DNA of 64,000 bases from Myxococcota bacterium (GTDB taxonomy: Bacteria; Myxococcota_A; UBA9042; PHBI01; JBMYRH01): assembly GCA_049602155.1 (NCBI GenBank), contig JBMYRH010000003.1, positions 301,871 through 365,870 of the forward strand, written 5' to 3'. Both the position numbers and the translations under genes were made by a program. Under the pieces are notes generated by a model. It made no database searches and had not been told where the DNA came from. It worked only from the letters and a program-made list of their open reading frames with translations. Below are positions 20,301 to 54,877 of this stretch, piece by piece; the stretch's first letter is position 1; every line of letters begins with the position of its first letter.

Positions 20301-21001
20301 CAAGCCGGGTCATCCAAACCGCCTACTTGCTCGGTGGCGCCCCTGGGACCATCACGTGGCGGCCCCCTGGTGACCTCAACCAAGTGGCGCTCATCGTCCG
20401 ACATGACGCCCTGAGCACGGTCAACACCTCGACGCTTATTCGGCCGAATCCGACCCCCCAAGTCATCGATGGCTACGACGTGGTCACACTGAACCCTGGG
20501 GCGCCGGACGAGCGCCTAAGCCTGCGCGACACGCCCCCGATCGACGCCCACGACTACTGCTACGCCCTGAAGGTGAGTGACGCGGCAGGCAACACCTCGC
20601 CCTACTCCGTGCCGCTCGTGGGTCGCTCTGTGGACATGACGCCGCCGGCGCCGCCAACCAACCTGGCCGTTGCCCGGGACAGCGGTGTCGCTACGCTGTC
20701 TTGGGGACACGACGAATCCCCGGTGCGGGTCCGCGTGAAGCGCAGCACCGCAGGCCCCAACGGGCCCTGGGTCACCTTGGACAAGGCCGCGGTAGCCATC
20801 GAGGTCGGCGACGGCAGCATCACGGCGCTCCCGCCCGAGAACTTCGAGCACTGGATCGATGGCGCGGGCTATGGCTACAGGTACAGAGATATGAGTGCTG
20901 AGCTGGGGCGTGAGTATTGGTATCGCGTTCAGATCTACGACGCGACCGGCCTCAAGTCCGGGCGTGATGACGGCAAAGTACTCTTGGGGGCAAGCGACTG
21001 A
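17303..21001 (+). CDS. Membrane-anchored FN3-repeat protein B (1232 aa)
   Basis: ATGA overlap with the A stop. N-terminal TM WPLLLLVTVMTLSGLFVFY. FN3-like units (e.g. PPAPPTNLAVARDSGVATLSWGHDESPVRVRVKRS...YWYRVQIYD). N-terminal pattern resembles protein F. Confidence 0.8.
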   Translation: MILSFKPTSWPLLLLVTVMTLSGLFVFYERPAETAPDLSQVVPEPQTPPLALVGVRDIAPPGAPAQVAPLPPLRRTYTPDCGATAASTQNLAPHNLLRWAFEPDLGFPTEGYDLYRCCGVEAAPPPGDPGWTKLNKDRIRPPQTHAEGQVFVSGIGLLPDGTRNVIGPRITATEWTTYCNVLEQTTGLPSDCPPPPPPGAVDPTAQTFEVSQDPASFLLLASMKPEIATLLGLYWVDDKLESPSCIYRVVGHWSGGIAHESVTGPLIEAPLSPPNGLAAEQTPQPGSFSCEALGGPTQAAGNPNVAMNLTWNLPVVQSMVAAADSPIMYNVCREAPGDGNLVQISRATYDDGTGPQLVESPMIVPRVPSFDGQGNPLLTPSGDPLMVLPDVFYTDHLDDDPLAIGAYTYAITGLDIFGRESLPSPPVQLPLIDPIGPPSPVNVKAQTVQPPTSLTADVELSFDWTAMEAEAAPDAAAFKVFRRVDTPDLTMNGQCPIMPQDDPANWELVATIPVGAYAHLYNSYNPLPVDEQPALNPVLPVQRYALTDTLTLPAGPPVRHFFYRVVAYDAPSQNPGPPSGAVNGHVVDMAPAVPPDDVTPIYSYSEWDSSVQVHLLWSAGATTGSDPMGYKVMRSLRALACATSSQCPKDCDQDGCVPTPCHPSGFCGDGPDLGPTGHRQEDREAMLTNGVEPYNATGSLEVLGKLRALAVLGNLFYRDPATGARVNVAPSCATGDQSACSAELATAIDGRTQYHQDTIPADASGQVFFYRVMAVSRAGLQESEDTVASTVSAPFSIQAPDFIAPTRPELVGAIADGVTGGAVSIQWAVGPESDTLVAGAGYTVERADVGWARCENQRAVCCELTSGTGSTFHWLERGACASQGGQRLDTPATVQVFKEITNTGVILTINDPADAAATSEVIIANELGGFCVPEVPVCCELPASPYPDYLMSDAAMCNTLGGSPWKPLTVGNSGTYTLDDLAPGRCYRVDVVPAGLKPDPSRVIQTAYLLGGAPGTITWRPPGDLNQVALIVRHDALSTVNTSTLIRPNPTPQVIDGYDVVTLNPGAPDERLSLRDTPPIDAHDYCYALKVSDAAGNTSPYSVPLVGRSVDMTPPAPPTNLAVARDSGVATLSWGHDESPVRVRVKRSTAGPNGPWVTLDKAAVAIEVGDGSITALPPENFEHWIDGAGYGYRYRDMSAELGREYWYRVQIYDATGLKSGRDDGKVLLGASD

Positions 21002-24000
21002 TGACGCGCCTTAGCACCGCCCTCGGCACCCTGTTGCTCGCGCTCAGCCTCAGCTGGAGCGCGCAGGCCGCCGTCTCTAACGTCTGCCTCCCGCTCTACA
21101 GTTTCGAGTCCGGAGCCGCAGGCTGGTACTACATCGATCAAGCCGGTGTGAAACAGACCGACCTCTGGCGCAGCGGCGTCGGGATCGGCGGCTCAGGGGC
21201 CCTGAAGGTCCCGAGCGGCGTCACCGCGATTCACCACGACAACCCAAGCTCTCTGCCGGGCGCTCAGCTCTGCTTCCATGCTCGACCATCGAGCGGACCG
21301 CTCGGGCAAGCGGCGGCGATGTGGACCCAAGACAACCAGGACTTCGGCTGCAGCTCCGGCTGCTTTACCAGCCAATACCCGCCGCGACAGCCATGCCCCT
21401 CTAAAACGGGCGCGCTCAAGGTCAGCAAGGACAGCGGCCTGAGCGGTGCGTCAATGCCCGTATCGACCGGCTACCAGCTCTACCAATTCCCCGCGGGCCT
21501 CCATCAAGGGCCCGACTGCGTCATCCCCGCGGGCGCGACCATCGGAATCGAGCACCTGTCCCATGTCTATATCGACAACATCGGGGTGATGTTCACGAAG
21601 AAAGACTGCCTTGAGGAATGCGTCGACGGTGCCGGCTGTGACGATCAAGACCCGTGCACCCAAGACCAATGCGTCGGCGGCCAGTGCCTCAATACCCCTA
21701 TCGCCGGCTGCTGCGAGAACAAAGAGGACTGCGGTGACGGTGACCCATGCACCATCGACCAGTGCCTGTTCAACGGGACGTGTCATCATATCCCGCGGCC
21801 CTTTTGCTGCGAGGATGACGCCGAGTGCACCGACGACTCGCCGTGCACCATCGACACCTGCGAGAACCATCACTGCGTGAACCTGATGGGCTGTGATGAC
21901 GGTCTCGACTGCACCTCCGACGTCTGCAACCCGGACACAGGGGCCTGCGATTACGTGCCCAATAATGAGGGCTGCCCCGCACCTCAAGACCCATGCATGA
22001 CGGCGGTGTGCGTCCCGGGCGAGGGATGTCGTGAGGAGCCGATCAACTGCGACGACGGGCTTCCATGCACCGTCGACACGTGCGTAGCAGGCCAAGGCTG
22101 CACCCACGAGAGCACCTGCGACGATGACAACCCATGCACCGACGATCATTGTGACGAGCAGGGCCAGTGCACCTCGGCCCCTAACCAGGCCCCATGTGAC
22201 GACGACGACAGCTGCACCGGTGGCGACCAGGCCCCTTGCGAGGGGACGATCACGATCTCCACCCACGGGAAGTGCCTGTTCGGAACCGCCGACGGTTCAG
22301 TGGGGCAAAGCCTCAACACCCAGACCATCACCACCGGCGGCTGTGGCGAGGAGGCTAACTGGACGCTCACCCTGGAGCCTGGTGGTCAATACTCGATCTC
22401 ACGCACCTCACCATCAGGCGACGTCTACTGCCTCAGCGCTTCGGCGACGGGACCGTCACCGATGGTGGAGACGCCGTGTATGCCCTCGGGGGATTGGGCA
22501 GGGCCCGCCGGCACGGTCTGGAGTCAGCGCTGGGACTTGGAGGCCTTTGCGGACGTCTATCGCATCCAGCGAGATGTCGGCGCCGGGGCCGAGTGTGTGC
22601 AACAGACCAATAACGGCATCGGCCTCGAGGTCTGCCCAGAGCTGGTCACCGGGCTCGACAGCTGGACCATCCTTGGACCCGACGGTGAGCCCTGCAGTTA
22701 TCAGGATCAATGCGCCGATGGCGTCTGCGGCGGCGCCGACCTCAGCTTGGCGGGGGACGGCTGCGCTGACGCCATCCCACTGCCTGCCAACCTGGGCACG
22801 AGCCTCTACGAAGGGAGCCTGGCATGTATGGCCGACCAAGCGTCGATGCTCTGCGGCGGCGAGGGGAGCCCAGAGGCGCTCTACACGTTGACTCTCCACG
22901 ATCCGACGCTCGTGAGCGCGCGCGTCCTCTCAAGCCACGACACCGTCCTCTACATGGCCACCAGCTGCGAGCCTGACGACGTCCCCTGCGCAGATGACAC
23001 GGGCGTCGGCCAAGCCGAGATCCTTGAGCAGGTGCTTGAGCCAGGGGTCTGGTTCATCGCGGTCGACGGCGCGAGCGGTACCGAGAGCGGCGGCTACACC
23101 CTGGAGGTGACCCTGACTGCCGTCGATCCGACTCAGCCCTTGACCGTCGAGGTCAGCGGCGAGGGACACGTAAGTAGTGAGCCGGATGGGATCCTCTGCG
23201 GCGTCCTCTGTCACGCCGACTTCTTGGAGGGGAGCGTCGTCGAGCTGACCGCTCATGGCTTCGCCGGTGCGCCCTTTTTGGGGTGGAGCGGCGGTGGCTG
23301 CGATGACACCACTGACTCGTGCATTGTGGAGATGAGCGCCGCGCAGTCTGTCACTGCGCACTTTGGCGAGGTCCCCGACCCCGAGCTCACCATCACGGAC
23401 CAGCCACCACTGGTCACCGCCTCGGCTGAGGCCTCGATCGACTTCCAGACGAACTTCATCGATCCGCAATACACCTGTCAGGTCGACGAGGAAGAGCCCA
23501 CCAGCTGCACACCACCGTTGCTGCTCACCGGGCTCATCAAGGGCCAGCACGCGGTCACGGTGCGGGCCACCCGACCTGCCGATGGTGCGCAGGTCATCGA
23601 GACCGTGCTGTGGACCGTCGACATCAGCGCACCTGAGACCTCGATCGTGACCGCACCCGAGGTCATCACGTGGTCGAACTCAGCGATGATTGAATTCACC
23701 TCGAACGAGGCGCTGGTCACCTTCACTTGCCGTCACCAAGGCCCACAGGGGCCCGGCGGCTGGTTCCCCTGTGACTCACCGCTGATGCTCAACGAGCTTC
23801 AACCAGGCTGGCACACGGTGTCCGTCTACGCGACCGACAGCGCAGGGAACGCCGACCTGACCCCTGCTCACACGACCTGGCAGGCTCGGAACCTCAACAC
23901 GGTCATCCTGACCGGTCCGCCAGAGGAGAGCACCGCCCCAGATGCGGCGTTCACCTTCGGCGTCAATGATCCCCAAGCCACGCTCCTCTACAGCCTCAAC

Positions 24001-27000
24001 GGCGGTCCAACCACCGGAACAGGGCTGACGCTCACGCTGAGCGATTTGCCGCTCGGCGCGTACAGCTTAGCCGTCTGGAGTGAGCACGTCGTCGACGGAC
24101 AGCTGCTCGTCGACGAGACACCAGCCGAGTGGGCATGGGCCCAGATCGCCGAGGAGCCCACCTGTGGTGACGGCATCACCCAGGGTGAAGAGGCCTGCGA
24201 CGACGGCAACACGGACAATGGAGACGCGTGCTCTGCGGACTGCAAGATCAACTGCGACGTCGATGAGGACGGATATATCGCCACGGTCTGCGGCGGCGAC
24301 GACTGCAACGACAACGAGCCGCTGCTCCCATCGGCCCCCCCTCTGGGCGTGAGCGAGGCTGACCTGCGCTGGCTCACCGCTCCAGCCAATGACGTCAGCA
24401 GCGCGACGGACCTCACCGGAGAAGGGTTGGCGCTCGTCGACGTGACCCTTGAGCCCCAGAGCCCGGGCTCAGTCATCGCCTTTGCCCCCTTGGCGTCGAG
24501 CCATATGAGCGATATCGCCGGGACCGTTGCGCGCTTCGCGGTGACAGCCACGATGCCCCACGATGGTGAAGGCGTTCGGTTCCAGGGGCGTGAATACGTG
24601 CAAGACAGCGTCGATGCGCCGGCGCCCTACGCCCCTCGACTCGTCCTATCATGCACGTCCAACGTGGCGTGCAAGGTGAGCTGTCCCCCGGTCACGACGG
24701 TATTCGAGGCGGTCGCCGATGCCTACGCGCAGGCACACCTGAGCAGCGATGTAGTCGAGCCATTGGCGCCGGAAGCGGCCCCCGAGCAGCTCTTAGTCAC
24801 CGCGAGCCAGGCCGCCGAGGGCACGACGTCAGCCAAGACTTGGCTGGCATTCGATCTCCGGGGCTACAGCTGCGACGGCACGCTCTCTTCCGGCAAGCTG
24901 GAGTTATCGGTCCTCCAGTGGCCGGCCAACGACTTCAAGCTGTCGCTCTACGGATTGTCACCTGGCCCGGCATGTGTCGATTCCTGTGACAGCGACGATG
25001 ACGCGGCCACTCACCCCTTGTGTGGCGGTGACGACTGCGATGATGAGGACCCTGGGGTGAATCCTGCGGCAGGAGAGATCTGCGACGACGGCAAAGACAA
25101 CGACTGTAACCCCGAGACCCCGGACGTCTGCACCGACCCCTGTGACGTAGACGGCGACGGATACATCTCTGTCGAGTGCCAGGGTGGAGACGACTGCAAC
25201 GACAACAACGAGTTCATCAACCCAGGGGTTGAGGAGAGCTGCGACGACGGCAAAGACAACGACTGTGACCCCGAGACCCCGGACGTCTGCATCGACCCCT
25301 GTGATGTAGACGGCGACGGATACATCTCTGTCGAATGTGCCGACGGAAACGACTGCGACGACAACGACAAGCTCGTCCACCCTGAGGCGGAAGAGGTCTG
25401 CGACGACGACAAAGACAACGACTGCAACCCCGAGACCCCAGACCAGTGCGAAGACCCCTGTGATGTAGACGGCGACGGATACATCTCTGTCGAATGTGCC
25501 GACGGAAACGACTGCGACGACAACGACAAGCTCGTCCACCCTGAGGCAGAAGAGATCTGCGGCGACGATAAAGACAACGACTGCAACCCCGAGACCTCGG
25601 ACGAGTGCCAAGATCCCTGTGATGCAGACGGAGACGGATACATCTCTGTCGAGTGCGCCGACGGAAACGACTGCGACGATAACGACAAGCTCGTCCACCC
25701 TGAGGCAGGAGAGATCTGCGGCGACGATAAAGACAACGACTGCAACCCCGAGACCTCGGACGAGTGCCAAGATCCCTGTGATGCAGACGGCGACGGATAT
25801 GCCTCTGTCGAGTGTGCCGACGGAAACGACTGTGACGACAATGACAAGCTCGTCCACCCAGGCGCGGAAGAGATCTGCGGCGACGGCAAAGACAATGACT
25901 GCAGCGGCCAGGGCTCCAACCAATGTCAGCTCACCGGGTCCTACAAAGCCGACGGAGGCCACGCGACGCTCATCGGCGCCTACACCCGCGGCCGCGTCGG
26001 GATGGCCTTCACCCCCACCGGAGATCTGAACGGTGACACAGCACCAGACATCGCCCTAGGCGCCCCTGCCGACATCGGTGAAGGCGGCACCGGTAGAGCC
26101 TTCCTTGTCAGGGGCACTGCCGCAGGCGAGGTCACCCTCTTAGTCAACGCCGAGGAGGTCCTGGGTAGCATGACAGGGTTCCCAGGTGCGCTCTTTGGCT
26201 CCTCATTGACCGCCGGCGCCCTAGCACCTGAGGCCGCCATAACCCTCGCCGTGGGCTCGCCCATGCACGCCAATGGTGAGGGCGAGTCTGCCTGTAAATC
26301 AGGCCGCATCTCACTCTTTGACGGCCCCTTCAATGGCAACGCTGAGGCCATCCCATGGAGCAACGCGACCGCGTCGATCGTAGGCACGGACTACATCTCC
26401 AAGGGCGGCTGCTACGACGACAGTATCGGCGCCCACCTCGACGCCAGCGCTGATCTGAACGCCGATGGACGCGTCGACCTGTTGTCGAACTCACGCTGGC
26501 TACTAGGGGCCGATCAAACCAACGCTTATGGCTACTTTGGCCCGCTCAACGGCGCGGTGATTGAGCCATCGCTGTCCTTCAAAAACCTAGGCAACCTAGA
26601 GGGCAGCGTCTCGATCCCCACTCAGGTCGTTCACCTCGGCGACATCAACGCCGATGGCCACGCCGACCTCGGCATCTCGTACACCCGCGACAGCACGGTC
26701 AAAGTCGACGCCGGCGCGCTGTACATCTTCCATGGCCCCTTTGAGCCGGGAGCCAGCCTGTCGATAGAGAGCGCAGGTGGGAGCATCCGCGGCGCATCCA
26801 CCGGCTTACAATTCGGCCAAGTCGAAGGCGGCGCGATGTCGGTAGCCGACGTCACCGGCGATGGCGTGGCTGACCTGCTGGTGACCAACGCGCCGACCGG
26901 TGAAGCCATCGGTGCGTATGTATTCGCTGGCCCCATCCAAGAGCACATCACGACGGCTCAAGCGAGCGCGGTTTGGTCTGGAGAGGGCACGCAGCGACCG

Positions 27001-27330
27001 ACCATTATCACCTCTGCCGGTGACTTCAACGGTGACGGCTTCACTGACGTCGTGCTCGGTGCGCCCGGCGCCGCCACGGCCGGAGAAAATGGCGGTGCCG
27101 CCTACCTCTTCTACGGCCCCGTCTCGGGTAGCTTCTCCCTCAGTGCAGCTGATGTCACCTTCAACAGCGTTCAAGGACAAGCGCTCGTCGGTCACCGTGT
27201 CGGGAGTCCTGGTGACCTCAACGGGGACGGAAATGACGACCTCGTCATCACCGCGCCAGGCTTTGACCATGTTGGGGGCGCTGGGGTCGACACCGGGGCC
27301 GCCTACGTTTGGTTGGGCCAGGGCGAGTAG
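21001..27330 (+). CDS. Giant secreted mosaic Cys-rich / FG-GAP repeat protein C (2109 aa)
   Basis: TGATG overlap with the B stop. Signal peptide LLLALSLSWSAQA. Run of D..PCT.D.C modules (~21600-22250). Pre-peptidase-C-terminal-like and InlB-B-repeat-like segments. CGDGITQGEEACDDGNTDNGDACSADC. MopE-like DVDGDGY..VEC..G.DCDD.D...HP.A.E.C.D.KDNDC repeats. C-terminal FG-GAP-like DLNGDG..D repeats. Confidence 0.85.
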   Translation: MTRLSTALGTLLLALSLSWSAQAAVSNVCLPLYSFESGAAGWYYIDQAGVKQTDLWRSGVGIGGSGALKVPSGVTAIHHDNPSSLPGAQLCFHARPSSGPLGQAAAMWTQDNQDFGCSSGCFTSQYPPRQPCPSKTGALKVSKDSGLSGASMPVSTGYQLYQFPAGLHQGPDCVIPAGATIGIEHLSHVYIDNIGVMFTKKDCLEECVDGAGCDDQDPCTQDQCVGGQCLNTPIAGCCENKEDCGDGDPCTIDQCLFNGTCHHIPRPFCCEDDAECTDDSPCTIDTCENHHCVNLMGCDDGLDCTSDVCNPDTGACDYVPNNEGCPAPQDPCMTAVCVPGEGCREEPINCDDGLPCTVDTCVAGQGCTHESTCDDDNPCTDDHCDEQGQCTSAPNQAPCDDDDSCTGGDQAPCEGTITISTHGKCLFGTADGSVGQSLNTQTITTGGCGEEANWTLTLEPGGQYSISRTSPSGDVYCLSASATGPSPMVETPCMPSGDWAGPAGTVWSQRWDLEAFADVYRIQRDVGAGAECVQQTNNGIGLEVCPELVTGLDSWTILGPDGEPCSYQDQCADGVCGGADLSLAGDGCADAIPLPANLGTSLYEGSLACMADQASMLCGGEGSPEALYTLTLHDPTLVSARVLSSHDTVLYMATSCEPDDVPCADDTGVGQAEILEQVLEPGVWFIAVDGASGTESGGYTLEVTLTAVDPTQPLTVEVSGEGHVSSEPDGILCGVLCHADFLEGSVVELTAHGFAGAPFLGWSGGGCDDTTDSCIVEMSAAQSVTAHFGEVPDPELTITDQPPLVTASAEASIDFQTNFIDPQYTCQVDEEEPTSCTPPLLLTGLIKGQHAVTVRATRPADGAQVIETVLWTVDISAPETSIVTAPEVITWSNSAMIEFTSNEALVTFTCRHQGPQGPGGWFPCDSPLMLNELQPGWHTVSVYATDSAGNADLTPAHTTWQARNLNTVILTGPPEESTAPDAAFTFGVNDPQATLLYSLNGGPTTGTGLTLTLSDLPLGAYSLAVWSEHVVDGQLLVDETPAEWAWAQIAEEPTCGDGITQGEEACDDGNTDNGDACSADCKINCDVDEDGYIATVCGGDDCNDNEPLLPSAPPLGVSEADLRWLTAPANDVSSATDLTGEGLALVDVTLEPQSPGSVIAFAPLASSHMSDIAGTVARFAVTATMPHDGEGVRFQGREYVQDSVDAPAPYAPRLVLSCTSNVACKVSCPPVTTVFEAVADAYAQAHLSSDVVEPLAPEAAPEQLLVTASQAAEGTTSAKTWLAFDLRGYSCDGTLSSGKLELSVLQWPANDFKLSLYGLSPGPACVDSCDSDDDAATHPLCGGDDCDDEDPGVNPAAGEICDDGKDNDCNPETPDVCTDPCDVDGDGYISVECQGGDDCNDNNEFINPGVEESCDDGKDNDCDPETPDVCIDPCDVDGDGYISVECADGNDCDDNDKLVHPEAEEVCDDDKDNDCNPETPDQCEDPCDVDGDGYISVECADGNDCDDNDKLVHPEAEEICGDDKDNDCNPETSDECQDPCDADGDGYISVECADGNDCDDNDKLVHPEAGEICGDDKDNDCNPETSDECQDPCDADGDGYASVECADGNDCDDNDKLVHPGAEEICGDGKDNDCSGQGSNQCQLTGSYKADGGHATLIGAYTRGRVGMAFTPTGDLNGDTAPDIALGAPADIGEGGTGRAFLVRGTAAGEVTLLVNAEEVLGSMTGFPGALFGSSLTAGALAPEAAITLAVGSPMHANGEGESACKSGRISLFDGPFNGNAEAIPWSNATASIVGTDYISKGGCYDDSIGAHLDASADLNADGRVDLLSNSRWLLGADQTNAYGYFGPLNGAVIEPSLSFKNLGNLEGSVSIPTQVVHLGDINADGHADLGISYTRDSTVKVDAGALYIFHGPFEPGASLSIESAGGSIRGASTGLQFGQVEGGAMSVADVTGDGVADLLVTNAPTGEAIGAYVFAGPIQEHITTAQASAVWSGEGTQRPTIITSAGDFNGDGFTDVVLGAPGAATAGENGGAAYLFYGPVSGSFSLSAADVTFNSVQGQALVGHRVGSPGDLNGDGNDDLVITAPGFDHVGGAGVDTGAAYVWLGQGE
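25141..25935 (+). repeat. Five tandem 159-bp (53-aa) coding repeats inside gene C
   Basis: Units start at 25141, 25300, 25459, 25618 and 25777, each CD(V/A)DGDGY(I/A)SVEC..G.DC.DN....(H/N)P......C.D.KDNDC. The first ~90 nt of the copies at 25300 and 25459 are identical by eye. Confidence 0.9.
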
Positions 27331-37877: not shown

Positions 37878-39995
37878 TCAGAGCCATGTAATTCGTGGTT
37901 TTATCGTGACCGGGACGCCGTCAATATGCGCCTCCACCACTGTCTCGCCGGGGACGCCGGGTGGAGGGATCTCCCAGCGCATTCCCCCACCATCAGGGAC
38001 GCCAGGTCCAGCGAGCTCTCCCACGCCATGGATGATGGTCAGGCTGAGCGACGCGTCAGAGCGGACCGAGCCATCTGGGGCACGGGCCGTAATCGCCACA
38101 AACGCCGACGCGGTGCCGTCAGATGGCAGCCGCCGAGACCAAGGGCTGACCTCGACCGTCCTCGGCTCGGTCACCGTGTGAACACGCCCAGCCTCGAGCT
38201 CAGCGATGACGTGGACCAAGCCGGAGGGCCAGGTAATCTCGACCTCTGACGCGACCTCTGCGGCGCCCAGCCCCACGAAGATGAGCGGTTGCGAGGTGCC
38301 GTAGGGGCTCCCGATATGCCCCATCACGTGGAGCTGTTGGGGGTCTCCTGGGCGCGGTCGCACGCGCACCAGGGCGCCCAAGCCCAGGGTGTTACTGGTC
38401 GTACCCCGGAGCCGAAGAGCGAGGCCATATCCTTCGGACTCAATGGCGTTTCGATAGACCCGTGGAAACTCCCCTAGGCCCCCTACGCCGAGGTCCGGCA
38501 GCCCGTCACCATCGAGGTCCCCAACCGTCAGGGCGCGCCACTCTCCAAGCGCCGACAAGCCGAGGCGCTCGGTGACGTCTGCGAAGCGCATCTGGCCGCC
38601 ATTCCAGTGCGCGCTGACATGCTGAGGTCCGACTTCGACGCGCAGCTTATCTCCCCCGGGGTTCGGGTCAGCGCCGTGACTGTAGACGAGGTCCACCCGA
38701 CCATCTCTGTCGAGGTCAAGCGCGGCAGCGCCCCAGGGGATCATGTAGCCATCCGGGGCCAAAGGGTTCGGAGGCAAGAGCAGCCCATCGGTGCCGATGC
38801 CGGTCCAGGTCGTGATGTCGGTGAGGGGATACGCCACCTCGGCCCTCAAGACGACATGATACGCGTCGGTCGTGATGGTCACGTCGAGGTCTCCATCTCC
38901 GTCGAGATCTGCAACAGACCCGCCCATCGGAGAGGAGAGCGAGAGATCGAGCGTGGGGGTCTCTCCCGCGGCGTCTACAGCCTCAAAGCGCGGCCTCGCT
39001 TGGTCATCCAAGCCGATCTCTCGGTAAAACACGTGGCTACGGCCCCCGCAGGCGCTCACCGCGGCGAAGGACATGAGGAGGCGCTCGTCACCGACTGGGG
39101 CGACGAGGGAGGCACACACGTTGGCATGGTTCACCGTCTCGATGAGCTCCGAGTGCGCCTTGTAGTGACGCCGCCCCGTCGCGAGGACCACGGCGAGCTC
39201 CGGGCAAGTCACGCTGCAACAGTCCACGGGCTGCCCGATGAGGTCGACCAGACCGTCGCGGTCGATATCGGCGAGTCCGAGCGCCTTCCACCCGATCAAT
39301 TCTGCCCCACCGGCCTGCTCCAACGTCAGGCTGTGGGCGATCGGCTCTCCTCCCCAGTGGACCGTGCTCGGGCCTTGGGTCAGCAGATCATCGCGGCCAT
39401 CGCCGTCGAGGTCGACGACCGCCAAGATATGACCAACCGGCAAGGGGATGGTCGCGTCTTCGACCAAGGAGTCGGTCAACGGATCGTGGCGAAGCGCGAG
39501 GCTCGTGACCGTCTCCCATGCACCCTCGCTGTCCGGCACACCCCGACGGTCACTCGACACGATGACCTCTTGAGCGCCGTCTCCATCGAGGTCCCCAAAG
39601 AGTGCCGTCGTAGGGCTCGGGATATCCCCGCCGTCTCCCGGGAAGAGCGGAAAGGGTGGCGACGACTCGAAGGTCGTCTTCAGGGACACAAACCCACCGG
39701 TGAAGCTCTCCGGGGGCTCAGGGACAGGCGGCAAATCGCCCGGGGGCCGCGGGTGAACCCCCCCGAGGTACTCGGACACCGCGCTGTCGTGCACCTCGGT
39801 CACGGGAGGCTCCCCACCCGCGTCGCCAGCGTCACCGCGTGGGGACGGCAACGGATCTGCAGCGTCAGCCAGAGAGACCGACACGTCGACATACGATGCA
39901 GCGTCAGGTTCGGCCGAGCAGCCAGCGATGAGGATGAACCCAAGCGCAAGGCAGCGCAGGCCGCGGGAGTTCGTTGTCGTCCGTCGATGCCTCAC
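37878..39995 (-). CDS. FG-GAP/VCBS-repeat lipoprotein with ASPIC/UnbV-like C-terminal domain (CRTAC1 family)
   Basis: Lipobox LGFILIAGC. Repeated DLDGDG..D(L/V) FG-GAP/VCBS motifs. C-terminal ...GLGAAEVASEVEITWPSGLVHV... is typical of UnbV_ASPIC. Confidence 0.8.
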   Translation of the reverse strand: MRHRRTTTNSRGLRCLALGFILIAGCSAEPDAASYVDVSVSLADAADPLPSPRGDAGDAGGEPPVTEVHDSAVSEYLGGVHPRPPGDLPPVPEPPESFTGGFVSLKTTFESSPPFPLFPGDGGDIPSPTTALFGDLDGDGAQEVIVSSDRRGVPDSEGAWETVTSLALRHDPLTDSLVEDATIPLPVGHILAVVDLDGDGRDDLLTQGPSTVHWGGEPIAHSLTLEQAGGAELIGWKALGLADIDRDGLVDLIGQPVDCCSVTCPELAVVLATGRRHYKAHSELIETVNHANVCASLVAPVGDERLLMSFAAVSACGGRSHVFYREIGLDDQARPRFEAVDAAGETPTLDLSLSSPMGGSVADLDGDGDLDVTITTDAYHVVLRAEVAYPLTDITTWTGIGTDGLLLPPNPLAPDGYMIPWGAAALDLDRDGRVDLVYSHGADPNPGGDKLRVEVGPQHVSAHWNGGQMRFADVTERLGLSALGEWRALTVGDLDGDGLPDLGVGGLGEFPRVYRNAIESEGYGLALRLRGTTSNTLGLGALVRVRPRPGDPQQLHVMGHIGSPYGTSQPLIFVGLGAAEVASEVEITWPSGLVHVIAELEAGRVHTVTEPRTVEVSPWSRRLPSDGTASAFVAITARAPDGSVRSDASLSLTIIHGVGELAGPGVPDGGGMRWEIPPPGVPGETVVEAHIDGVPVTIKPRITWL

Positions 39996-50654: not shown

Positions 50655-50740
50655 TCCATCCACGATAACGGCAAACCAGTCGCGAGGCTGGGACGCAAAA
50701 CCAAGGGTCTCTTTGAGACAGCCTGGCTACCGAAGGAGAA
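50655..50740 (+). promoter_or_regulatory. c-di-GMP-I (GEMM-I) riboswitch-like aptamer, copy 1
   Basis: cacgataacGGCAAACCagtcGCGAggctGGGACGCAAAACCaagggtctctttgagacagcctggctACCGAagg. It matches the remembered GEMM-I/Vc2 core GGCAAACC-stem-GNRA-stem-GGGACGCAAAGCC-hairpin-ACCGA. CCAGTC/GGCTGG forms a 6-bp stem capped by GCGA, and GTCTC/GAGAC forms the second hairpin. Confidence 0.75.
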
Positions 50741-50972
50741 TGTCGAGAAAGGTGGACTTTCGTCTAGCAGGCCGGCCTCAGCACCCGTCCTTTGACGCCC
50801 GCTCCCTCTGAGGGGGGCGGCGCGTCAAGCCCCGACGACGACACCTAAGCAACCTCAGATGGCGCCCTCGCAGGGGAGCGCCTCGTCTATCTGACCCATT
50901 CGCGAGCATCCACGCCCCCGTGATGCCACGTCGCCGATGTCCCGCATCGGTCGAAACGTACAGGAGTGCCCT

Positions 50973-51173
50973 ATGAAGACCGTCGTGCTCTGTCTCCTCA
51001 CTTTAGCCCTGATAAGTGCCATGCACCACTTTGATATCAGGGACCTAAACCGGCCCTCGGGGCTCTCAACCTCCCTCGAACAAGGCGGTAAAAACGGTCA
51101 CATCGAGGGACACATGCACCAAGGCGCCGTGCAACCCATTCAGCGTGTCACCTCCGAGAGGAGGCAAGGCTAA
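50973..51173 (+). CDS. Small secreted His-rich peptide (66 aa), hypothetical
   Basis: AGGAG lies 6 nt upstream of ATG 50973. Signal-peptide-like MKTVVLCLLTLALISA. It is followed 7 nt later by a perfect 8-bp hairpin. The track ORF begins at 50937. Confidence 0.5.
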   Translation: MKTVVLCLLTLALISAMHHFDIRDLNRPSGLSTSLEQGGKNGHIEGHMHQGAVQPIQRVTSERRQG

Positions 51174-51200: not shown

Positions 51201-51285
51201 ATCATCCCGAAATGGCAAACCAGTCGCGAGGCTGGGACGCAAAACCAAGGGTCTCTCTGAGACAGCCTAGCTACCGAAGGAACAT
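51201..51285 (+). promoter_or_regulatory. c-di-GMP-I (GEMM-I) riboswitch-like aptamer, copy 2
   Basis: The ~68-nt core is nearly identical to copy 1 (ggcaaaccagtcgcgaggctgggacgcaaaaccaagggtctctCtgagacagcctAgctaccgaagga). The two internal substitutions fall in the hairpin loop and in a predicted mismatch position. The 3' end gaagga doubles as an SD-like element 7 nt before ATG 51289. Confidence 0.75.
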
Positions 51286-51558
51286 CCCATGAAGACGCAT
51301 CAAAAGCCGCGGCCCGCGCCGCAACACATTCGCCCCCATGAGCGTCTGACGGCCGCCACGCCTGATGACCGAATCACCACGTACCGAAGCGACAGAGGAT
51401 CTCATGCCAGACAACGTCTTTATCCAGCTCCCCCTCGTCATCCAAGACCTCTACTCCAGCGTCAATGACCTCCCCGTAGGTCCGCTGAACAACGAAAGGC
51501 CGCGCACAAACGCCCAGAGCACAAAAGACGATCAGGACACCGGCGCAGTCGGGCAACG

Positions 51559-52818
51559 CTAAGGGGCTGGTGGTTCGGCAACCAAACGGGCGCCGATCGC
51601 CATCCAAGGTGGCGGTGTCTCCGGCGCCGCCAACCTACGGCTGTTTCGGCATAAGAGCGCCATAAACGGGCGCTGACAGGCCCCCCCGCGAACGACTCGG
51701 GTGACGGGGGTGCGCGCGTCGTCGCGCGGGGGGCCTGCCGGGTCAATCACCTCAGGCGCGGTCATCCCGTAGGCCTCTGCCAAGTGGTAATCCGCAGTCC
51801 ACTCCGGACAGTTACCCACCATGTCGTAGAGCCCATACCCGTTGGGCGCATACGAGGCGACTGGGACCGGGGCGGGGCGGTCAAAATTGCACCGGGAGCC
51901 ATCGATCGGGGCGTCCCCCCACGGAAAAGGCGCCCCCTCGATGCCCCCTCGTGCGGCGCGTTCCCACTCAGCCTCGGTCGGTAACCGGTAGCGCCACCCA
52001 TCTCGACCTTCTAATACAGCGCATAAGCGCACGACATCGGCGATGCTGAGCCCGGTCTGGGGTAACGCGCCGACATAGGCGTCAAGGGGGGGAGCGTCGG
52101 GCGCAGAGACAGAGGCCCACAGCGCCCGCGTCACCGGCCAGGCGGCCATCCAATAGTCCTCTGTCAGCGTGACACAACGCAGCGGCAACTCACTCGCCTT
52201 TTGCGCAGGGCTGCCACCCATGGTGAAGGTGCCCGCGGGCACCTTGCGAAAGGGGAGCCCGGAGGGGGACCACGCCACCGAGGGGTCGGCCTTGAGGCGC
52301 TGCAAATGAGCAGCGCGCTCTGGGCGTAAGGCCGCCTCGGCCCCTTCGGCCTGCCTAGGCAACCCGCTCAGGTCTGGGTGAGCAGGCAAGAAGACTGGGC
52401 GCTGCCGATGCCAAGCGATGCGATGACGGATCGGGTGGTTAGGGTGCCCGTCGAGGAGGTCCTCCCAGGTCCGCCAAGCGCCTGCATGATCGCCAGCCCG
52501 ATAGGCGTCGAGCCCTTCGTGATACGCCACCATCCCGGGATCAGGCCTGTCCGCATCAGGCACCTCCGCCGCGTACTCTGGGTGGGCAAAGAGTGCGCCA
52601 CGCAGTGCAGCGAGGATCTCTTCGACGGCGCTCCCGCTGCGGAACCTCCCAGCGATCTCGCCTTGTGGTGTCAGGATGAGGCAATCAGGGGGAGCCGCAG
52701 CGGCGCGGCTGGAGTCTAAGCTCGAGTTGACCAAGGCTCGCCCCACGGGATCCACCCCGCAGCCCTCAAGCGCCATGCTGATCCTCACCGGCACAAAGGC
52801 TTTGGCGATCAGGCGCAC
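51559..52818 (-). CDS. Formylglycine-generating enzyme (FGE/SUMF1) family protein; reading frame probably continues upstream to 53010 through an in-frame TGA
   Basis: C-terminal FGE-sulfatase motifs GTFTMGGSP, RLPTEAEWERAARGG, NGYGLYDMVGNCPEWTADY and VVRGGA. The track ORF starts at GTG 52818. The same frame is open from ATG 53010 except for TGA 52869-52867. Confidence 0.8.
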   Translation of the reverse strand: MRLIAKAFVPVRISMALEGCGVDPVGRALVNSSLDSSRAAAAPPDCLILTPQGEIAGRFRSGSAVEEILAALRGALFAHPEYAAEVPDADRPDPGMVAYHEGLDAYRAGDHAGAWRTWEDLLDGHPNHPIRHRIAWHRQRPVFLPAHPDLSGLPRQAEGAEAALRPERAAHLQRLKADPSVAWSPSGLPFRKVPAGTFTMGGSPAQKASELPLRCVTLTEDYWMAAWPVTRALWASVSAPDAPPLDAYVGALPQTGLSIADVVRLCAVLEGRDGWRYRLPTEAEWERAARGGIEGAPFPWGDAPIDGSRCNFDRPAPVPVASYAPNGYGLYDMVGNCPEWTADYHLAEAYGMTAPEVIDPAGPPRDDARTPVTRVVRGGACQRPFMALLCRNSRRLAAPETPPPWMAIGARLVAEPPAP

Positions 52819-53042
52819 GATCTCAGGTTCAGAGAAGCCGACGGCCCTCTGGTACTGTGCGGCGGGTCACAAGTCGTCCGCGCTCCCTATGCCCTGTCCG
52901 CACGGGTGTAAGAGCACCATACGGCGATCTCGCTGGGCCACTTCGAGCCCGTCAGAGATCGCCTCGAGCCACACGATATCCCGAAGTTCCTCATTCATCT
53001 CGCCCACCATAACGCGAGAGGCTTGTCAGGTGTCAGCGGACA

Positions 53043-53555
53043 GTGAAGAGTGGGGTCGTGTTTGCACGACGCCTCAGCCTCTTCATCCTCCTCGCCGCGA
53101 ACCTCGCCGGCTGCGAAACCAAGTCACCGTGTGCGCTCACCGGAACTTGGGAGGTCGAGCGCCTCGCTTGTACAGGTCACCCTGAAGCCCGCCCCGACCA
53201 CGTCAAAGCGAGCTACACCTTCGACGGCGCGGGGGGCACGACCAGGTGGGAGCTCCCCGGGTGCACCGTCGAGGCCCAGTTTGAACTCACCCTCCAAGGC
53301 ACCCAAGTGATCTTGCGAGAGCACCAACACACCTGTGAAGCCACAGCGGTCGCGGATGGTGAGGCAGCCACCCCCTGCTGCACCTCATCTGCAGTGGACA
53401 TGACGCTGAATTATCGATGCCAGCCCGGCTCAGAGGGCGTGGACTGGATCGCGACCCTGGCAACGGACGGTGAGACAGGGCCTTGGGCCAACCGGGGCGC
53501 CTGGCGTGGCTGCCCCACAGGCTCCCTCGGGATGATGCGCCTCGTCACCCACTGA
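53043..53555 (+). CDS. Hypothetical lipoprotein
   Basis: GTG start. LFILLAANLAGC lipobox. No recognisable family. Confidence 0.5.
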   Translation: MKSGVVFARRLSLFILLAANLAGCETKSPCALTGTWEVERLACTGHPEARPDHVKASYTFDGAGGTTRWELPGCTVEAQFELTLQGTQVILREHQHTCEATAVADGEAATPCCTSSAVDMTLNYRCQPGSEGVDWIATLATDGETGPWANRGAWRGCPTGSLGMMRLVTH

Positions 53556-53620: not shown

Positions 53621-54877
53621 ATGAACGGCACCTTGGACATGGCATCAATTCGAGCGCAGTACCCTGCCTTTAAGCGCACCCAAGGTGGCCAACCCGTGGT
53701 CTTCTTTGATGGCCCCGCCGGGAGCCAAGTTCCGCAACGGGTCATCGACGCCTCGAGCCACGCCTTGGGCTACGTGAACGCCAACACCCACGGAGAGTTC
53801 GTCACCGCGCTTGAGAGTGACGCCATGCTGGCCAAAGCGCACCAGGCCATGGCCGATTTGATCGGCGCAGATGACCCGAACCTCGTCGCCTTCGGCCCCA
53901 ACATGACGACGCTCACCTTGGGGCTCAGTCGAGCGCTCGGGCGCACCTGGGGGCCCGGTGACGAGATCGTCGTGACGCGCCTGGATCATGACGCCAACGT
54001 CTGGCCCTGGGCCCTCGCCGCGAAGGACGCGGGGGCAACGCTTCGGTACATCGAGATCGATCAAGAGGACTGTACGCTGGATATGGACAGCGCTCGGTCC
54101 GTCATTGGACCCAAGACCAAGCACGTCGCCGTGGGCGCCGCCTCGAACGCGGTGGGGACGATCAACCCGCTGCGTGAGGTCGCGGACTTGGCTCACGCGG
54201 TCGGCGCGACCTTCTTCGTCGACGCGGTCCACTACGCACCCCACGGGCTCATCGATGTCGACGCCTGGGGCTGCGACTTCCTTGCTTGCTCGGCCTACAA
54301 GTTCTTCGGCCCGCACGTCGGCGTACTTTGGGGCCGGCGTGAGTGGATGACGACCCTAGACGCTTACCGCGTGCGCCCGGCGGGTAACAACACACCCGAT
54401 CGCTGGATGACCGGGACTCAGAACCACGAGGGGATCGCGGGGGCGCTCGAGGCGGTCGAGTACCTCGCCGACCTAGGCCGCGAGGCCAGTGAAGACCCGA
54501 ACCTGGAGCGTCGCGACGCCCTGAAGGCCGCCTTCGATGTCATCGAGCGCCACGAATCCGAGCTGTGCCAACGCATGATCGGCGGACTTCAAGCCCTGGA
54601 TGGCGTGCGTGTCCTCGGCATCACAGACCCCTCAAAAGCAGCTCAACGCTGCCCCACGATCTCGATCGTGCACGACGCACACACACCCATGGCCATCGCC
54701 CGGCACCTCGCCGGCGATGGCATCTTTGTCTGGGAAGGGCACTTCTACGCTGTGGAGCTGAGCCAGACCTTGGGCTTGGAGCCCAACGGGATGGTCCGCA
54801 TCGGCCTGCTGCACTACAACACCGCCGGCGAAGTCGATCGGCTGATCGAGTCACTGCAGCGCCTGGTCAAAAGGTGA
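53621..54877 (+). CDS. Class V aminotransferase / cysteine desulfurase-like PLP enzyme
   Basis: IRAQYPAF...FFDGPAGSQVPQRVIDA N-terminus. TRLDHDANVWPW. SAYKFFGPHVGVLWG (PLP-Lys). Confidence 0.85.
   Translation: MNGTLDMASIRAQYPAFKRTQGGQPVVFFDGPAGSQVPQRVIDASSHALGYVNANTHGEFVTALESDAMLAKAHQAMADLIGADDPNLVAFGPNMTTLTLGLSRALGRTWGPGDEIVVTRLDHDANVWPWALAAKDAGATLRYIEIDQEDCTLDMDSARSVIGPKTKHVAVGAASNAVGTINPLREVADLAHAVGATFFVDAVHYAPHGLIDVDAWGCDFLACSAYKFFGPHVGVLWGRREWMTTLDAYRVRPAGNNTPDRWMTGTQNHEGIAGALEAVEYLADLGREASEDPNLERRDALKAAFDVIERHESELCQRMIGGLQALDGVRVLGITDPSKAAQRCPTISIVHDAHTPMAIARHLAGDGIFVWEGHFYAVELSQTLGLEPNGMVRIGLLHYNTAGEVDRLIESLQRLVKR

What the first reader, a model, noticed from the sequence alone, without database searches (positions are those of the whole stretch)
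52830..53010. In-frame TGA at the active-site Cys position of a thioredoxin-like domain fused to an FGE-family protein: selenocysteine candidate or pseudogene
On the - strand the FGE-family ORF (GTG 52818) is preceded in the same frame by an open stretch from ATG 53010. That stretch is interrupted only by TGA at 52869-52867. Read through, the N-terminus is MVGEMNEELRDIVWLEAISDGLEVAQRDRRMVLLHPCGQGIGSADDL[TGA]PAAQYQRAVGFSEPEIVRLIAKAFVPVRISMA...PPDCLILTPQGEIAGRF..VEEILAALRGA. This matches the Thioredoxin_7/DUF255 layout (W...eAl..A....kpvLv.f...WC..C......vFsdpEva.lln.nFV.vkvd). In the template ...C..C.....(8)F.dPEv, the TGA aligns exactly with the first Cys of the CxxC motif, 11 residues before the conserved Phe. 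A stop codon at a redox-active Cys position of a thioredoxin fold is the classic signature of a bacterial selenoprotein. Fifteen nt downstream there is a hairpin, CAGAG-G-GCC-GUC-GGC-UU-CUCUG (52851-52830). Its small G/U-containing apical loop is compatible with a bacterial SECIS, but not diagnostic. The resulting motif U-P-A-A lacks a resolving Cys and is atypical. A class V aminotransferase (cysteine desulfurase/selenocysteine-lyase superfamily) lies 0.8 kb away at 53621-54877, which is context only.
Basis: partly seen in the sequence, partly recalled or inferred. Interest (0 to 1): 0.65.

Follow-up and report, generated by a model that had tools for sequence, protein, structure and literature searches.

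The report
New selenoprotein fused to FGE domain
The in-frame TGA is almost certainly a selenocysteine codon, not a broken gene, and it marks a small family of thioredoxin-fold selenoproteins from uncultured bacteria (here fused to an FGE-like domain) that I could not find in the current catalogues.

Summary
On the - strand, one frame runs from ATG 53010 to TAG 51559 and is interrupted only by TGA 52869-52867.

The TGA is not an error or a pseudogene:
- Contigs of four independent metagenome runs are identical at the site.
- Eight orthologues (61-90% identity) carry TGA at the same column.
- So do five more distant relatives (23-38% identity over the N-terminal domain), including a secreted subfamily without the FGE domain.
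- dN/dS is far below 1 on both sides of the TGA.
- TGA ends 18 of 24 other genes in the window, so the recoding is site-specific.

Six codons 15-32 nt after the TGA show no synonymous change. A relative's hairpin contains the apical 10-mer of the E. coli fdhF SECIS.

Profile searches place the TGA on the first Cys of the CxxC motif of Thioredoxin_7/DUF255-type domains. One Cys-form and one Gly-form homologue exist.

The family is absent from the 2022 and 2026 selenoprotein catalogues and from NCBIfam.

Not testable here: the selA/B/C/D genes (the source is a seawater metagenome contig) and selenium incorporation. The biochemical function is inferred only.

The parts
51559..53010 (-). Complete selenoprotein gene: ATG 53010-53008, Sec codon 48, 483 codons, stop TAG 51561-51559. 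Gene callers report only the part from GTG 52818 or from ATG 52776 (M79).
   Evidence: Database entries P0001-P0006 all start at M79. The upstream frame is conserved in all orthologues. dN/dS is 0.15-0.45 upstream of the TGA and 0.00-0.16 between the TGA and M79.
52867..52869 (-). UGA read as selenocysteine (U48). It is always preceded by TTG (Leu) here, or TGG (Trp) in distant relatives, and always followed by CCN (Pro), giving a UGA-C context.
   Evidence: TGA is at this column in 8 orthologues and in L009, L010/L011, L012, L014 and L021. Contigs of 4 runs are identical here. TGA is the ordinary stop of 18 of 24 genes in the window.
52830..52851 (-). SECIS-like hairpin: lower stem CAGAGG/UCUCUG, bulged U (52836), upper stem GCC/GGC, apical loop GUC (52842-52840). 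There are 24 nt between the UGA and the loop.
   Evidence: RNAalifold gives -10.3 kcal/mol. Codons +6 to +11 (CAG AGG GCC GTC GGC TTC) have one codon each in 8 sequences, whereas 32 of 35 other invariant degenerate codons vary. This is the gene-wide minimum of synonymous diversity, 0.00-0.07 against a mean of 0.54. There is no Rfam match.
52573..52971 (-). N-terminal thioredoxin-fold domain (residues about 14-146), a remote Thioredoxin_7/DUF255 type. U48 lies at the N-terminus of helix alpha1, and the cis-Pro-type loop is A-P-P-D-C110.
   Evidence: AF2 topology: b1 31-37, a1 50-57, a 62-71, b2 72-78, a 88-96, b3 110-113, b4 119-123, a 129-142 (pLDDT is below 50 for residues 39-58).
52366..52548 (-). 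Central helical, TPR-like linker (residues about 155-215) containing the conserved HP-x-RHR motif (P193 and R197 invariant in A4).
   Evidence: AF2 helices 158-171, 175-188 and 195-202. Invariant A178, P193 and R197 in the 19-sequence alignment. Relatives give weak TPR hits: tol_pal_ybgF and PEP_TPR_lipo.
51580..52242 (-). C-terminal FGE-sulfatase-fold domain (residues 257-477). C445 aligns with human FGE Cys336. The second Cys (C454) lies 4 residues further along than Cys341.
   Evidence: Pfam PF03781, 108.4 bits. Foldseek top hits are human, T. curvata and S. coelicolor FGE, E about 1e-15 to 1e-13.

Best explanation
What it is. This is a genuine selenoprotein gene. The UGA at 52869-52867 is decoded as selenocysteine by the standard bacterial route. 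In that route, SelB-GTP carrying Sec-tRNA(Sec) is held on the mRNA hairpin at 52851-52830, just downstream of the UGA, and competes with release factor 2 at a weak UGA-C stop.

The product. It is a 483-residue cytoplasmic protein with no signal peptide and three parts:
- a thioredoxin-fold domain, with Sec48 at the position of the nucleophilic Cys of CxxC (motif L-U-P-A-A, no resolving Cys);
- a TPR-like helical linker;
- an FGE-fold domain.

Likely function (inferred). The selenol acts as a single-residue redox or ligand centre. It most likely cycles through a selenenylsulfide with an external thiol. It would act on, or for, whatever the TPR and FGE-like parts bind.

Shown versus inferred. 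Shown in silico: the recoded, conserved UGA; coding constraint on both flanks; RNA-level constraint on the hairpin; the fold assignment and the position of U. Inferred: SelB dependence, selenium content, and the biochemical role.
For: - TGA at one column in 8 orthologues (61-90% identity) and in 5 more distant lineages (23-38% identity over the N-terminal domain, A3), two of them from a secreted subfamily without the FGE domain.
- In an exhaustive phmmer search of 1.84 billion representatives, almost all relatives start within about 20 residues after the U column. This is the footprint of gene callers stopping at the TGA. The N-terminal halves that end in ...DGGW also exist as separate database entries.
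- dN/dS is far below 1 on both sides of the TGA.
- GC by codon position in the 47 upstream codons is coding-like: 0.72, 0.36, 0.74.
- Four independent runs give identical sequence at the site.
- TGA is the normal stop of 18 of 24 genes in the window.
- Synonymous sites are frozen exactly over the hairpin, which is the gene-wide minimum.
- Each distant relative has its own hairpin at the same place. The L021 hairpin contains GCAGGUCUGC, the apical stem and GGUC loop of the E. coli fdhF SECIS.
- U aligns with the first Cys of CPYC in 2LST when X stands in for U. C instead of X adds about 6 bits to the DUF255 and Thioredoxin_7 scores.
- A Cys-form homologue exists: P0030, with ...AGW-C-PAGAHTRAVGFS.
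Against: - No selA, selB, selD or tRNA-Sec was seen. There is none in the 64-kb window or in 16 related loci.
- The generic bSECIS criteria are non-specific here, with a 66% background pass rate. The window hairpin is invariant among its orthologues, so it shows no covariation.
- Only one Cys-form was found, and it is a 104-aa read-level fragment whose DNA I could not see. One homologue has Gly at the column.
- The window protein's N-domain has no Pfam thioredoxin hit, and relatives stay just under Pfam's cut-off.
- The AF2 model has low confidence (pLDDT below 50) for residues 39-58, which include U48.
- No conserved partner Cys and no conserved gene neighbourhood point to a function.
Confidence: 0.85

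Rival explanations
1. SECIS-independent stop-codon read-through. The conserved UGA-C is decoded at low efficiency by a near-cognate tRNA (Trp, Cys, Arg or Gly). The conserved RNA element acts as a read-through stimulator or regulatory pause, not as a SelB site.
For: - The Sec machinery is unverified.
- UGA followed by C is the leakiest stop context in E. coli (established knowledge).
- One homologue has Gly (GGG) at the column.
- The preceding residue is Trp in most relatives.
Against: - The codon sits on the catalytic Cys column of a thioredoxin fold, and a Cys-form homologue exists.
- The L021 hairpin carries the SelB-binding apical 10-mer of fdhF.
- A residue that could be Trp, Cys or Gly could simply be encoded by a sense codon. 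Yet 13 lineages keep TGA.
Confidence: 0.07
2. Two separate genes. A 47-residue peptide ends at the TGA, and an independent FGE-family protein starts downstream at GTG 52818 or ATG 52776, as the databases annotate it.
For: - All database entries are annotated this way.
- In the window, a GAGGA sequence lies 7 nt before ATG 52776.
- S78-M79 are encoded by AGC ATG without variation.
Against: - The 30 codons between the TGA and M79 are the best conserved part of the protein, with dN/dS 0.00-0.16.
- No start codon is conserved in that stretch: GTG at +17 is present in 5 of 8 orthologues, and the Shine-Dalgarno-like GAGGA is absent from L002 and L003.
- The split would cut a thioredoxin fold between strand b1 and helix a1.
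- Distant relatives are cut by gene callers at different downstream codons but share the same TGA.
Confidence: 0.04
3. Pseudogene, sequencing error or assembly error at the TGA.
For: A single in-frame stop in a metagenome contig is most often one of these.
Against: - The sequence is identical in contigs of 4 independent runs.
- The same TGA is present in 13 lineages.
- Both flanks are under purifying selection.
Confidence: 0.01
4. Genome-wide reassignment of UGA (genetic code 4 or 25).
For: The Gly-form homologue would fit code 25.
Against: - TGA terminates 18 of 24 confident genes in the window, at ends supported by Pfam matches.
- The window is 64% G+C, unlike the lineages known to use code 4 or 25 (established knowledge).
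Confidence: 0.01

Closest known systems
Trx7/PDZ domain-containing selenoprotein (NF041199; Thioredoxin_7, motif CxxU), listed in PMC9312934 and PMC13188914
   Same: It is a predicted bacterial selenoprotein whose Sec lies in the redox motif of a Thioredoxin_7-type fold, and it is known mainly from marine metagenomes.
   Different: There, Sec is the second position of the motif (CxxU) and the partner domain is PDZ. Here, Sec is the first position (U-P-A-A), there is no second redox residue, and the partners are TPR plus an FGE fold. No NCBIfam selenoprotein model matched.
Glutathione-peroxidase-like and peroxiredoxin-like selenoproteins (UxxT, TxxU)
   Same: They have a thioredoxin fold with a single Sec at the N-terminus of helix alpha1 and no CxxC partner. 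A mechanism through an oxidised selenium species resolved by an external thiol is the natural analogy.
   Different: There is no sequence similarity to PF00255 or PF00578. The GPx catalytic Gln/Trp/Asn residues and the Prx PxxxT motif were not seen. The family's own invariant residues are R30, P49, R55, S60, F72, D87 and R91.
Formylglycine-generating enzyme (SUMF1/FGE; PDB 1y1e, 5nxl, 2q17)
   Same: The C-terminal domain has the FGE fold (Foldseek E about 1e-15; Pfam 108 bits). C445 aligns with the copper ligand Cys336.
   Different: The second Cys is displaced by 4 residues. The Cys pair is missing in relatives such as P0012 and P0013. No known FGE carries an N-terminal thioredoxin-fold or Sec domain. 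No sulfatase was seen among the window genes scanned.
E. coli fdhF SECIS
   Same: It is a hairpin just downstream of a UGA-C, with a small apical loop beginning with G-U or G-G-U and one bulged U. The relative L021 shares the 10-mer GCAGGUCUGC.
   Different: In the window element the loop is GUC (3 nt), the bulged U is on the 3' side, and the hairpin starts 15 nt after the UGA rather than 11 nt.
DsbA-like protein form 2 selenoprotein (PF01323, motif DxxUP; PMC13188914 Table 1)
   Same: The short motif D-x-x-U-P is the same as D-D-(W/L)-U-P here.
   Different: That family is defined by the DSBA domain PF01323. None of five N-domains of this family hit PF01323 at E up to 10. I could not retrieve its representative sequence for a direct comparison.

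Membership tests
Bacterial SelB/SECIS-dependent selenoprotein gene | In-frame UGA conserved among orthologues, with coding conservation on both sides | tested here: met
   Thirteen lineages carry TGA at one column. dN/dS is 0.15-0.45 upstream and 0.00-0.16 downstream.
Bacterial SelB/SECIS-dependent selenoprotein gene | [quoted passage not shown] | tested here: met
   The loop is GUC, 24 nt from the UGA, at -10.3 to -13.1 kcal/mol. However, 66% of random in-frame codons also pass, so this feature alone carries little weight.
Bacterial SelB/SECIS-dependent selenoprotein gene | Selection on the RNA element itself | tested here: met
   There is no synonymous variation in 6 consecutive codons in 8 sequences. 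This is the gene-wide minimum among 144 windows. No covariation is possible within the invariant core. Relatives have different hairpins at the same place.
Bacterial SelB/SECIS-dependent selenoprotein gene | Cys-containing homologues with Cys aligned to the UGA | tested here: met
One Gly form also exists, L015. The Cys support is thin.
Bacterial SelB/SECIS-dependent selenoprotein gene | selA, selB, selC (tRNA-Sec) and selD in the same genome | not testable with these tools
   There are none in the window or in 16 related loci. The source is a seawater metagenome contig. One genome-collection scan found no relative, and the other was lost to my mis-framed pattern.
Bacterial SelB/SECIS-dependent selenoprotein gene | Selenium in the protein | not testable with these tools
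   This needs 75Se labelling or mass spectrometry.
Thioredoxin_7 (PF13899) / Thioredox_DsbH DUF255 (PF03190) | Score at or above Pfam's gathering cut-off (27 bits) | tested here: not met
   The window N-domain has no hit at E up to 10. Relatives score 26.6 and 25.8 bits with C at the U position, and 20.7 and 20.5 bits with X. This is a remote relative, not a member by Pfam's rule.
Thioredoxin_7 (PF13899) / Thioredox_DsbH DUF255 (PF03190) | Thioredoxin fold with the redox residue at the N-terminus of helix alpha1 | tested here: met
   The AF2 model gives the thioredoxin-fold order of strands and helices (b1 31-37, a1 50-57, b2 72-78, b3 110-113, b4 119-123, closing helix 129-142), with U48 just before helix 50-57 (low confidence around U48). 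In the profile alignment to 2LST CPYC, X aligns with Cys and P49 with Pro.
Thioredoxin_7 (PF13899) / Thioredox_DsbH DUF255 (PF03190) | CxxC pair | tested here: not met
   The motif is U-P-(A/G)-(A/G/S). C37 and C110 of the window protein are not conserved in distant relatives.
FGE-sulfatase domain superfamily (PF03781) | Pfam score above cut-off, and FGE fold | tested here: met
   108.4 bits against a cut-off of 23.3. Foldseek E is about 1e-15 to human FGE.
Catalytic formylglycine-generating enzyme | Copper-binding Cys pair equivalent to human Cys336/Cys341 | tested here: inconclusive
   C445 aligns with Cys336, but C454 lies 4 residues beyond the Cys341 position. The pair is invariant in the 6 full-length orthologues but absent in relatives P0012 and P0013.
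UGA-reassigned genetic code (tables 4, 25) | UGA not used as a stop | tested here: not met
   TGA ends 18 of 24 genes in the window.

The most novel reading that the evidence does not exclude
This is a Sec-dominated family. Among the relatives I could inspect at the Sec column there was one Cys form and one Gly form, whereas nearly all known selenoproteins have far more abundant Cys homologues (PMC13188914). In this reading, a lone selenol on a thioredoxin fold is the working partner of an FGE-fold domain. It might deliver or reduce copper, or resolve an oxidised Cys or selenium intermediate. That would be a selenium-dependent branch of FGE-superfamily chemistry. The secreted TPR-only subfamily would use the same selenol module on other clients.
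Probability: 0.2. Interest if true: 0.75.

Novelty: new member of a known kind. Interest (0 to 1): 0.62.

Why it matters
Annotation. Gene callers split every member of this family at the TGA. All database entries I saw are N-terminally truncated 'sulfatase modifying factor' proteins or orphan peptides of 79-85 residues. The redox domain, and hence the real architecture, is invisible in current annotation.

Catalogues. The family is absent from the 2022 list of 87 selenoprotein families and the 2026 list of 119. It is also absent from NCBIfam release 20. The likely reason is that the usual discovery strategy needs abundant Cys homologues, which this family lacks.

Biology. This is the first selenoprotein I could find that is linked to the FGE/EgtB/PvdO fold. 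It gives a concrete handle on the unknown function of the many non-FGE members of that superfamily: a single essential selenol next to a TPR adaptor.

Ecology. It also marks the host lineages, which are uncultured marine, estuarine and soil bacteria, as likely selenocysteine users.

Tried and rejected
- Pfam on the read-through window protein found only the FGE domain, with no thioredoxin hit.
- Rfam, at both gathering and permissive thresholds, found no SECIS family at the site.
- The genome-contig scan with the N-domain alignment found no relative. One of its two peptide patterns used my Cys substitution at the TGA, so it could not match.
- The second genome-contig scan was wasted. My IUPAC pattern had 14 Ns instead of 13 and was out of frame, and its 5 hits are chance matches. 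As a result, the host taxon and its sel genes could not be examined.
- A single-sequence AF2 run was useless, with pLDDT 45.
- The second AF2 model is good overall (pLDDT 78.8) but has no alignment depth, and low confidence, over residues 1-58.
- The Foldseek ranking is dominated by the FGE domain, so it says nothing about the N-domain.
- A generic bSECIS scan was rejected as evidence after the control showed that 66% of random codons pass.
- A scan of the window for other TGA-interrupted coding frames found only one antisense artefact at 57537. With the thresholds I used it also failed to recover the known site, so it was not sensitive.
- No tRNA-Sec was found in any locus.
- The DNA for the Cys-form P0030 is not on record.
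- Gene neighbourhood gave no functional lead, because it is not conserved beyond the close orthologues.
- I did not attempt a hand-made structural alignment of the divergent hairpins for covariation counts, because fitting it to the structure would bias the result.

Full report
**1. The observation**

On the - strand, the ORF listing gives the FGE-family ORF 51559..52818 (GTG start, 419 aa) and a 47-codon ORF 52867..53010 in the same frame. Translating 51559-53070 shows one frame open from ATG 53010 to TAG 51559, interrupted only by TGA 52869-52867. The hairpin CAGAGG-GCC-[GUC]-GGC-U-UCUCUG lies at 52851-52830, 15 nt after the TGA. Pfam sees only FGE-sulfatase in the read-through protein (residues 257-477, 108.4 bits) and no thioredoxin family.

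**2. Not an error and not a pseudogene**

The window comes from a seawater metagenome. Twenty runs, labelled as seawater, marine and estuary metagenomes or unlabelled, hold part or all of the stretch. Contigs of four of those runs show no difference over 52700-53060.

The protein database holds six close relatives, all annotated as about 405-413-residue proteins starting at M79. In their contigs the gene order is the same as in the window. In every one of them the upstream frame is open, conserved at the protein level, and interrupted by a stop at the same column. A metagenome scan added two more. All eight distinct sequences (61-90% protein identity) have TGA there.

dN/dS values are:

| Segment | dN/dS |
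|---|---|
| 47 codons upstream of the TGA | 0.15-0.45 |
| 30 codons between the TGA and M79 | 0.00-0.16 |
| Next 65 codons | 0.07-0.21 |

No start codon is conserved between the TGA and M79. For example, the GTG at 52818 is present in only 5 of 8 sequences. TGA is the ordinary stop of 18 of 24 confident genes in the window. So the code is standard and the recoding is local.

**3. A wider family with the same TGA**

I ran an exhaustive phmmer search of residues 49-250 against 1.84 billion representative proteins. It found 24 proteins. Nearly all of them begin within about 20 residues after the Sec column, which is what gene callers produce when they meet an in-frame TGA.

I fetched the DNA for five such relatives, which are 23-38% identical to the window protein over the N-terminal domain (alignment A3):
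- Three have the same three-domain architecture: L009, L010/L011 and L012.
- Two belong to a secreted subfamily with a signal peptide, the thioredoxin-like domain and TPR repeats, but no FGE domain: L014 and L021.

All carry TGA at exactly the same column, in the motif (D/G)(D/G)(W/L)-U-P.

A profile search also returned the orphan N-terminal halves that end in ...DGGW, and many C-terminal halves that start at MLRAGPFSDE.

Only two relatives do not have TGA:
- L015 has GGG (Gly) at the column.
- P0030, a 104-residue peptide from a soil run, has Cys...AGW-C-PAGAHTRAVGFS. Its DNA is not on record.

**4. The RNA element**

In the eight orthologues, invariant residues with degenerate codons normally use 2-4 different codons. 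The exception is codons +6 to +11 after the TGA (CAG AGG GCC GTC GGC TTC), plus the first two bases of +12. These are identical in all eight and include the rare Arg codon AGG.

Over the whole gene in six full-length orthologues, mean pairwise synonymous difference at informative columns is 0.54. The windows covering QYQRAVGFS score 0.00-0.07, the lowest of 144 windows. The next lowest anywhere else is 0.23.

These codons are the hairpin. RNAalifold gives -10.3 kcal/mol for CAGAGGGCC[GUC]GGC.U.UCUCUG. It fits the published bacterial SECIS model (from PMC13188914):
- 16-37 nt between the UGA and the loop;
- MFE at or below -7.5 kcal/mol.

My control shows that fit is weak evidence. With the same criteria, 239 of 360 random in-frame codons of these GC-rich genes pass. 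So the frozen synonymous sites carry the argument, not the existence of a hairpin.

The distant relatives have different hairpins at the same place:
- L012: GGUCACUC[GUG]GAGUGACC
- L009: CGAGAGC[CGUGA]GCU.A.CUCG
- L021: CAGGGCA[GGUC]UGCUCUG

The L021 hairpin contains the 10-mer GCAGGUCUGC. That is the apical stem and GGUC loop of the E. coli fdhF SECIS. I confirmed my recollection of the fdhF sequence against 5,419 E. coli genomes. Rfam has no match at the site.

**5. Where the Sec sits**

With U written as C, the N-domains of two relatives hit Pfam:
- Thioredox_DsbH/DUF255: E 6.7e-6, 26.6 bits.
- Thioredoxin_7: E 1.1e-5, 25.8 bits.

With X instead of C, the same hits remain at 20.7 and 20.5 bits. 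The loss of about 6 bits shows that the U column is matched to a conserved Cys column of those profiles.

A family profile built with X at the Sec position finds only Thioredoxin_7- and DUF255-type structures in the PDB (2kuc, 2lst, 3ira), apart from one low-complexity artefact. In the 2LST alignment, X pairs with the first Cys and P49 with the Pro of C-P-Y-C.

An AlphaFold model built with 18 database relatives has pLDDT 78.8 and pTM 0.79. Its N-terminal domain has strands at 31-37, 72-78, 110-113 and 119-123. Its helices are at 50-57, 62-71, 88-96 and 129-142. U48 lies just before helix 50-57. This is the thioredoxin-fold order. Confidence around U48 is low because the database relatives lack that part.

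So is the remark that there is no resolving Cys. The motif is U-P-(A/G)-(A/G/S), and C37 and C110 of the window protein are not conserved in distant relatives. The family's invariant residues are R30, P49, R55, S60, F72, D87 and R91.

**6. The rest of the protein and its context**

The C-terminal domain has the FGE fold (Foldseek E about 1e-15 to human FGE). C445 aligns with the copper ligand Cys336, while the second Cys lies four residues beyond the Cys341 position. That pair is invariant in the close orthologues but missing in relatives such as P0012 and P0013. So a canonical FGE activity is doubtful.

The middle part is helical and TPR-like.

The neighbouring class V aminotransferase is a TIGR01976 cysteine desulfurase-like protein. 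It is syntenic only in the close orthologues, and distant relatives have unrelated neighbours.

There is no tRNA and no sel gene in the window or in 16 related loci.

**7. Mechanism**

The best-supported reading is SelB/SECIS-dependent insertion of selenocysteine at a weak UGA-C stop. This gives a 483-residue cytoplasmic protein. Its thioredoxin-fold domain carries a lone selenol at the nucleophile position.

By analogy with single-Sec thioredoxin-fold enzymes (the GPx and Prx types), I infer that it cycles through an oxidised selenium species or a selenenylsulfide resolved by an external thiol. It would serve whatever client the TPR and FGE-like parts bind. This functional part is inference only.

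The rivals are near-cognate read-through, two separate genes, a pseudogene, and a reassigned code. They are weighed in their own sections. Only the first cannot be excluded computationally.

**8. Comparison and novelty**

The 2022 catalogue (87 families) and the 2026 catalogue (119 families) list no selenoprotein with an FGE/sulfatase-modifying domain or this architecture. Full-text searches linking selenocysteine with FGE or SUMF1 found nothing relevant. No NCBIfam selenoprotein model matches.

The closest listed families are:
- the Trx7/PDZ selenoprotein, which has motif CxxU with Sec at the other position;
- a DsbA-like family with motif DxxUP, defined by PF01323, which these proteins do not hit.

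The 2026 review notes that nearly all selenoproteins have far more abundant Cys homologues. Here the Sec form dominates, which probably explains why Cys/Sec-pair searches missed it.

I therefore class it as a new family within a known kind of system.

**9. Limits**

- The host taxon and its Sec machinery were not examined. One genome scan found no relative, and the other was wasted by my own framing error in the pattern.
- There is no experimental evidence for selenium.
- The Cys-form rests on one fragment.
- The function is unknown beyond the inference above.

Noticed in passing
window 50661-50735 and 51205-51279 (+): Two c-di-GMP-I-GGC riboswitch aptamers score above Rfam's gathering score (71.5 and 64.5 bits against 59). 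Each lies ahead of a small + strand ORF (50937-51173, 78 aa; 51365-51562, 65 aa). The second ORF converges on the 3' end of the selenoprotein gene. Small genes (52 and 66 aa) sit at the same place in L001 and L003.
   Followed up: no
window 53043-53555 (+): A 170-aa ORF lies between the selenoprotein gene and the cysteine desulfurase-like gene. It has a lipoprotein-like N-terminus (…LAANLAGC…) and no Pfam or NCBIfam match. It is conserved in synteny in L001, L003 and L004.
   Followed up: partly
window 53621-54877 (+): The class V aminotransferase is a full-length match to TIGR01976, 'cysteine desulfurase-like protein' (VC1184 family), at 478.6 bits against a cut-off of 352. It matches the selenocysteine lyase SclA model only weakly (101.7 bits against a cut-off of 525).
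   Followed up: partly
L015 121-1200 (protein P0020): This is the only full-length annotated member of the secreted subfamily. It has GGG (Gly) where all others have TGA...HGNW-G-PESEVLRAGPFSD. A Sec-to-Gly replacement, rather than Sec-to-Cys, is unusual.
   Followed up: partly
L021 around 6649-6700: The hairpin after the TGA of this relative (CAGGGCAGGUCUGCUCUG) contains GCAGGUCUGC. That 10-mer is identical to the apical part of the E. coli fdhF SECIS.
   Followed up: yes
window 10356-27330 (+) and 37878-39995 (-): Very large ORFs (2316, 1232 and 2109 aa) carry EGF, Cu-binding_MopE and FG-GAP repeats, and another ORF is FG-GAP/ASPIC. The contig of the relative L010 also encodes a MopE-repeat protein and a Ser/Thr kinase. 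From my own knowledge, this repertoire is common in marine Myxococcota, but the taxon was not determined.
   Followed up: no
window 52776-52790 (-): S78-M79 are encoded by AGC ATG without variation in all eight orthologues. In the window only, a GAGGA sequence lies 7 nt upstream of this ATG. An internal start that would make a Sec-less isoform cannot be excluded.
   Followed up: partly
L009 3148-5016: Next to the relative's selenoprotein gene lies a 622-aa Cytochrome_C554-family gene. That Pfam family also contains known selenoproteins (ExtKL type, PMC13188914 Table 1). I did not check it for an in-frame TGA.
   Followed up: no
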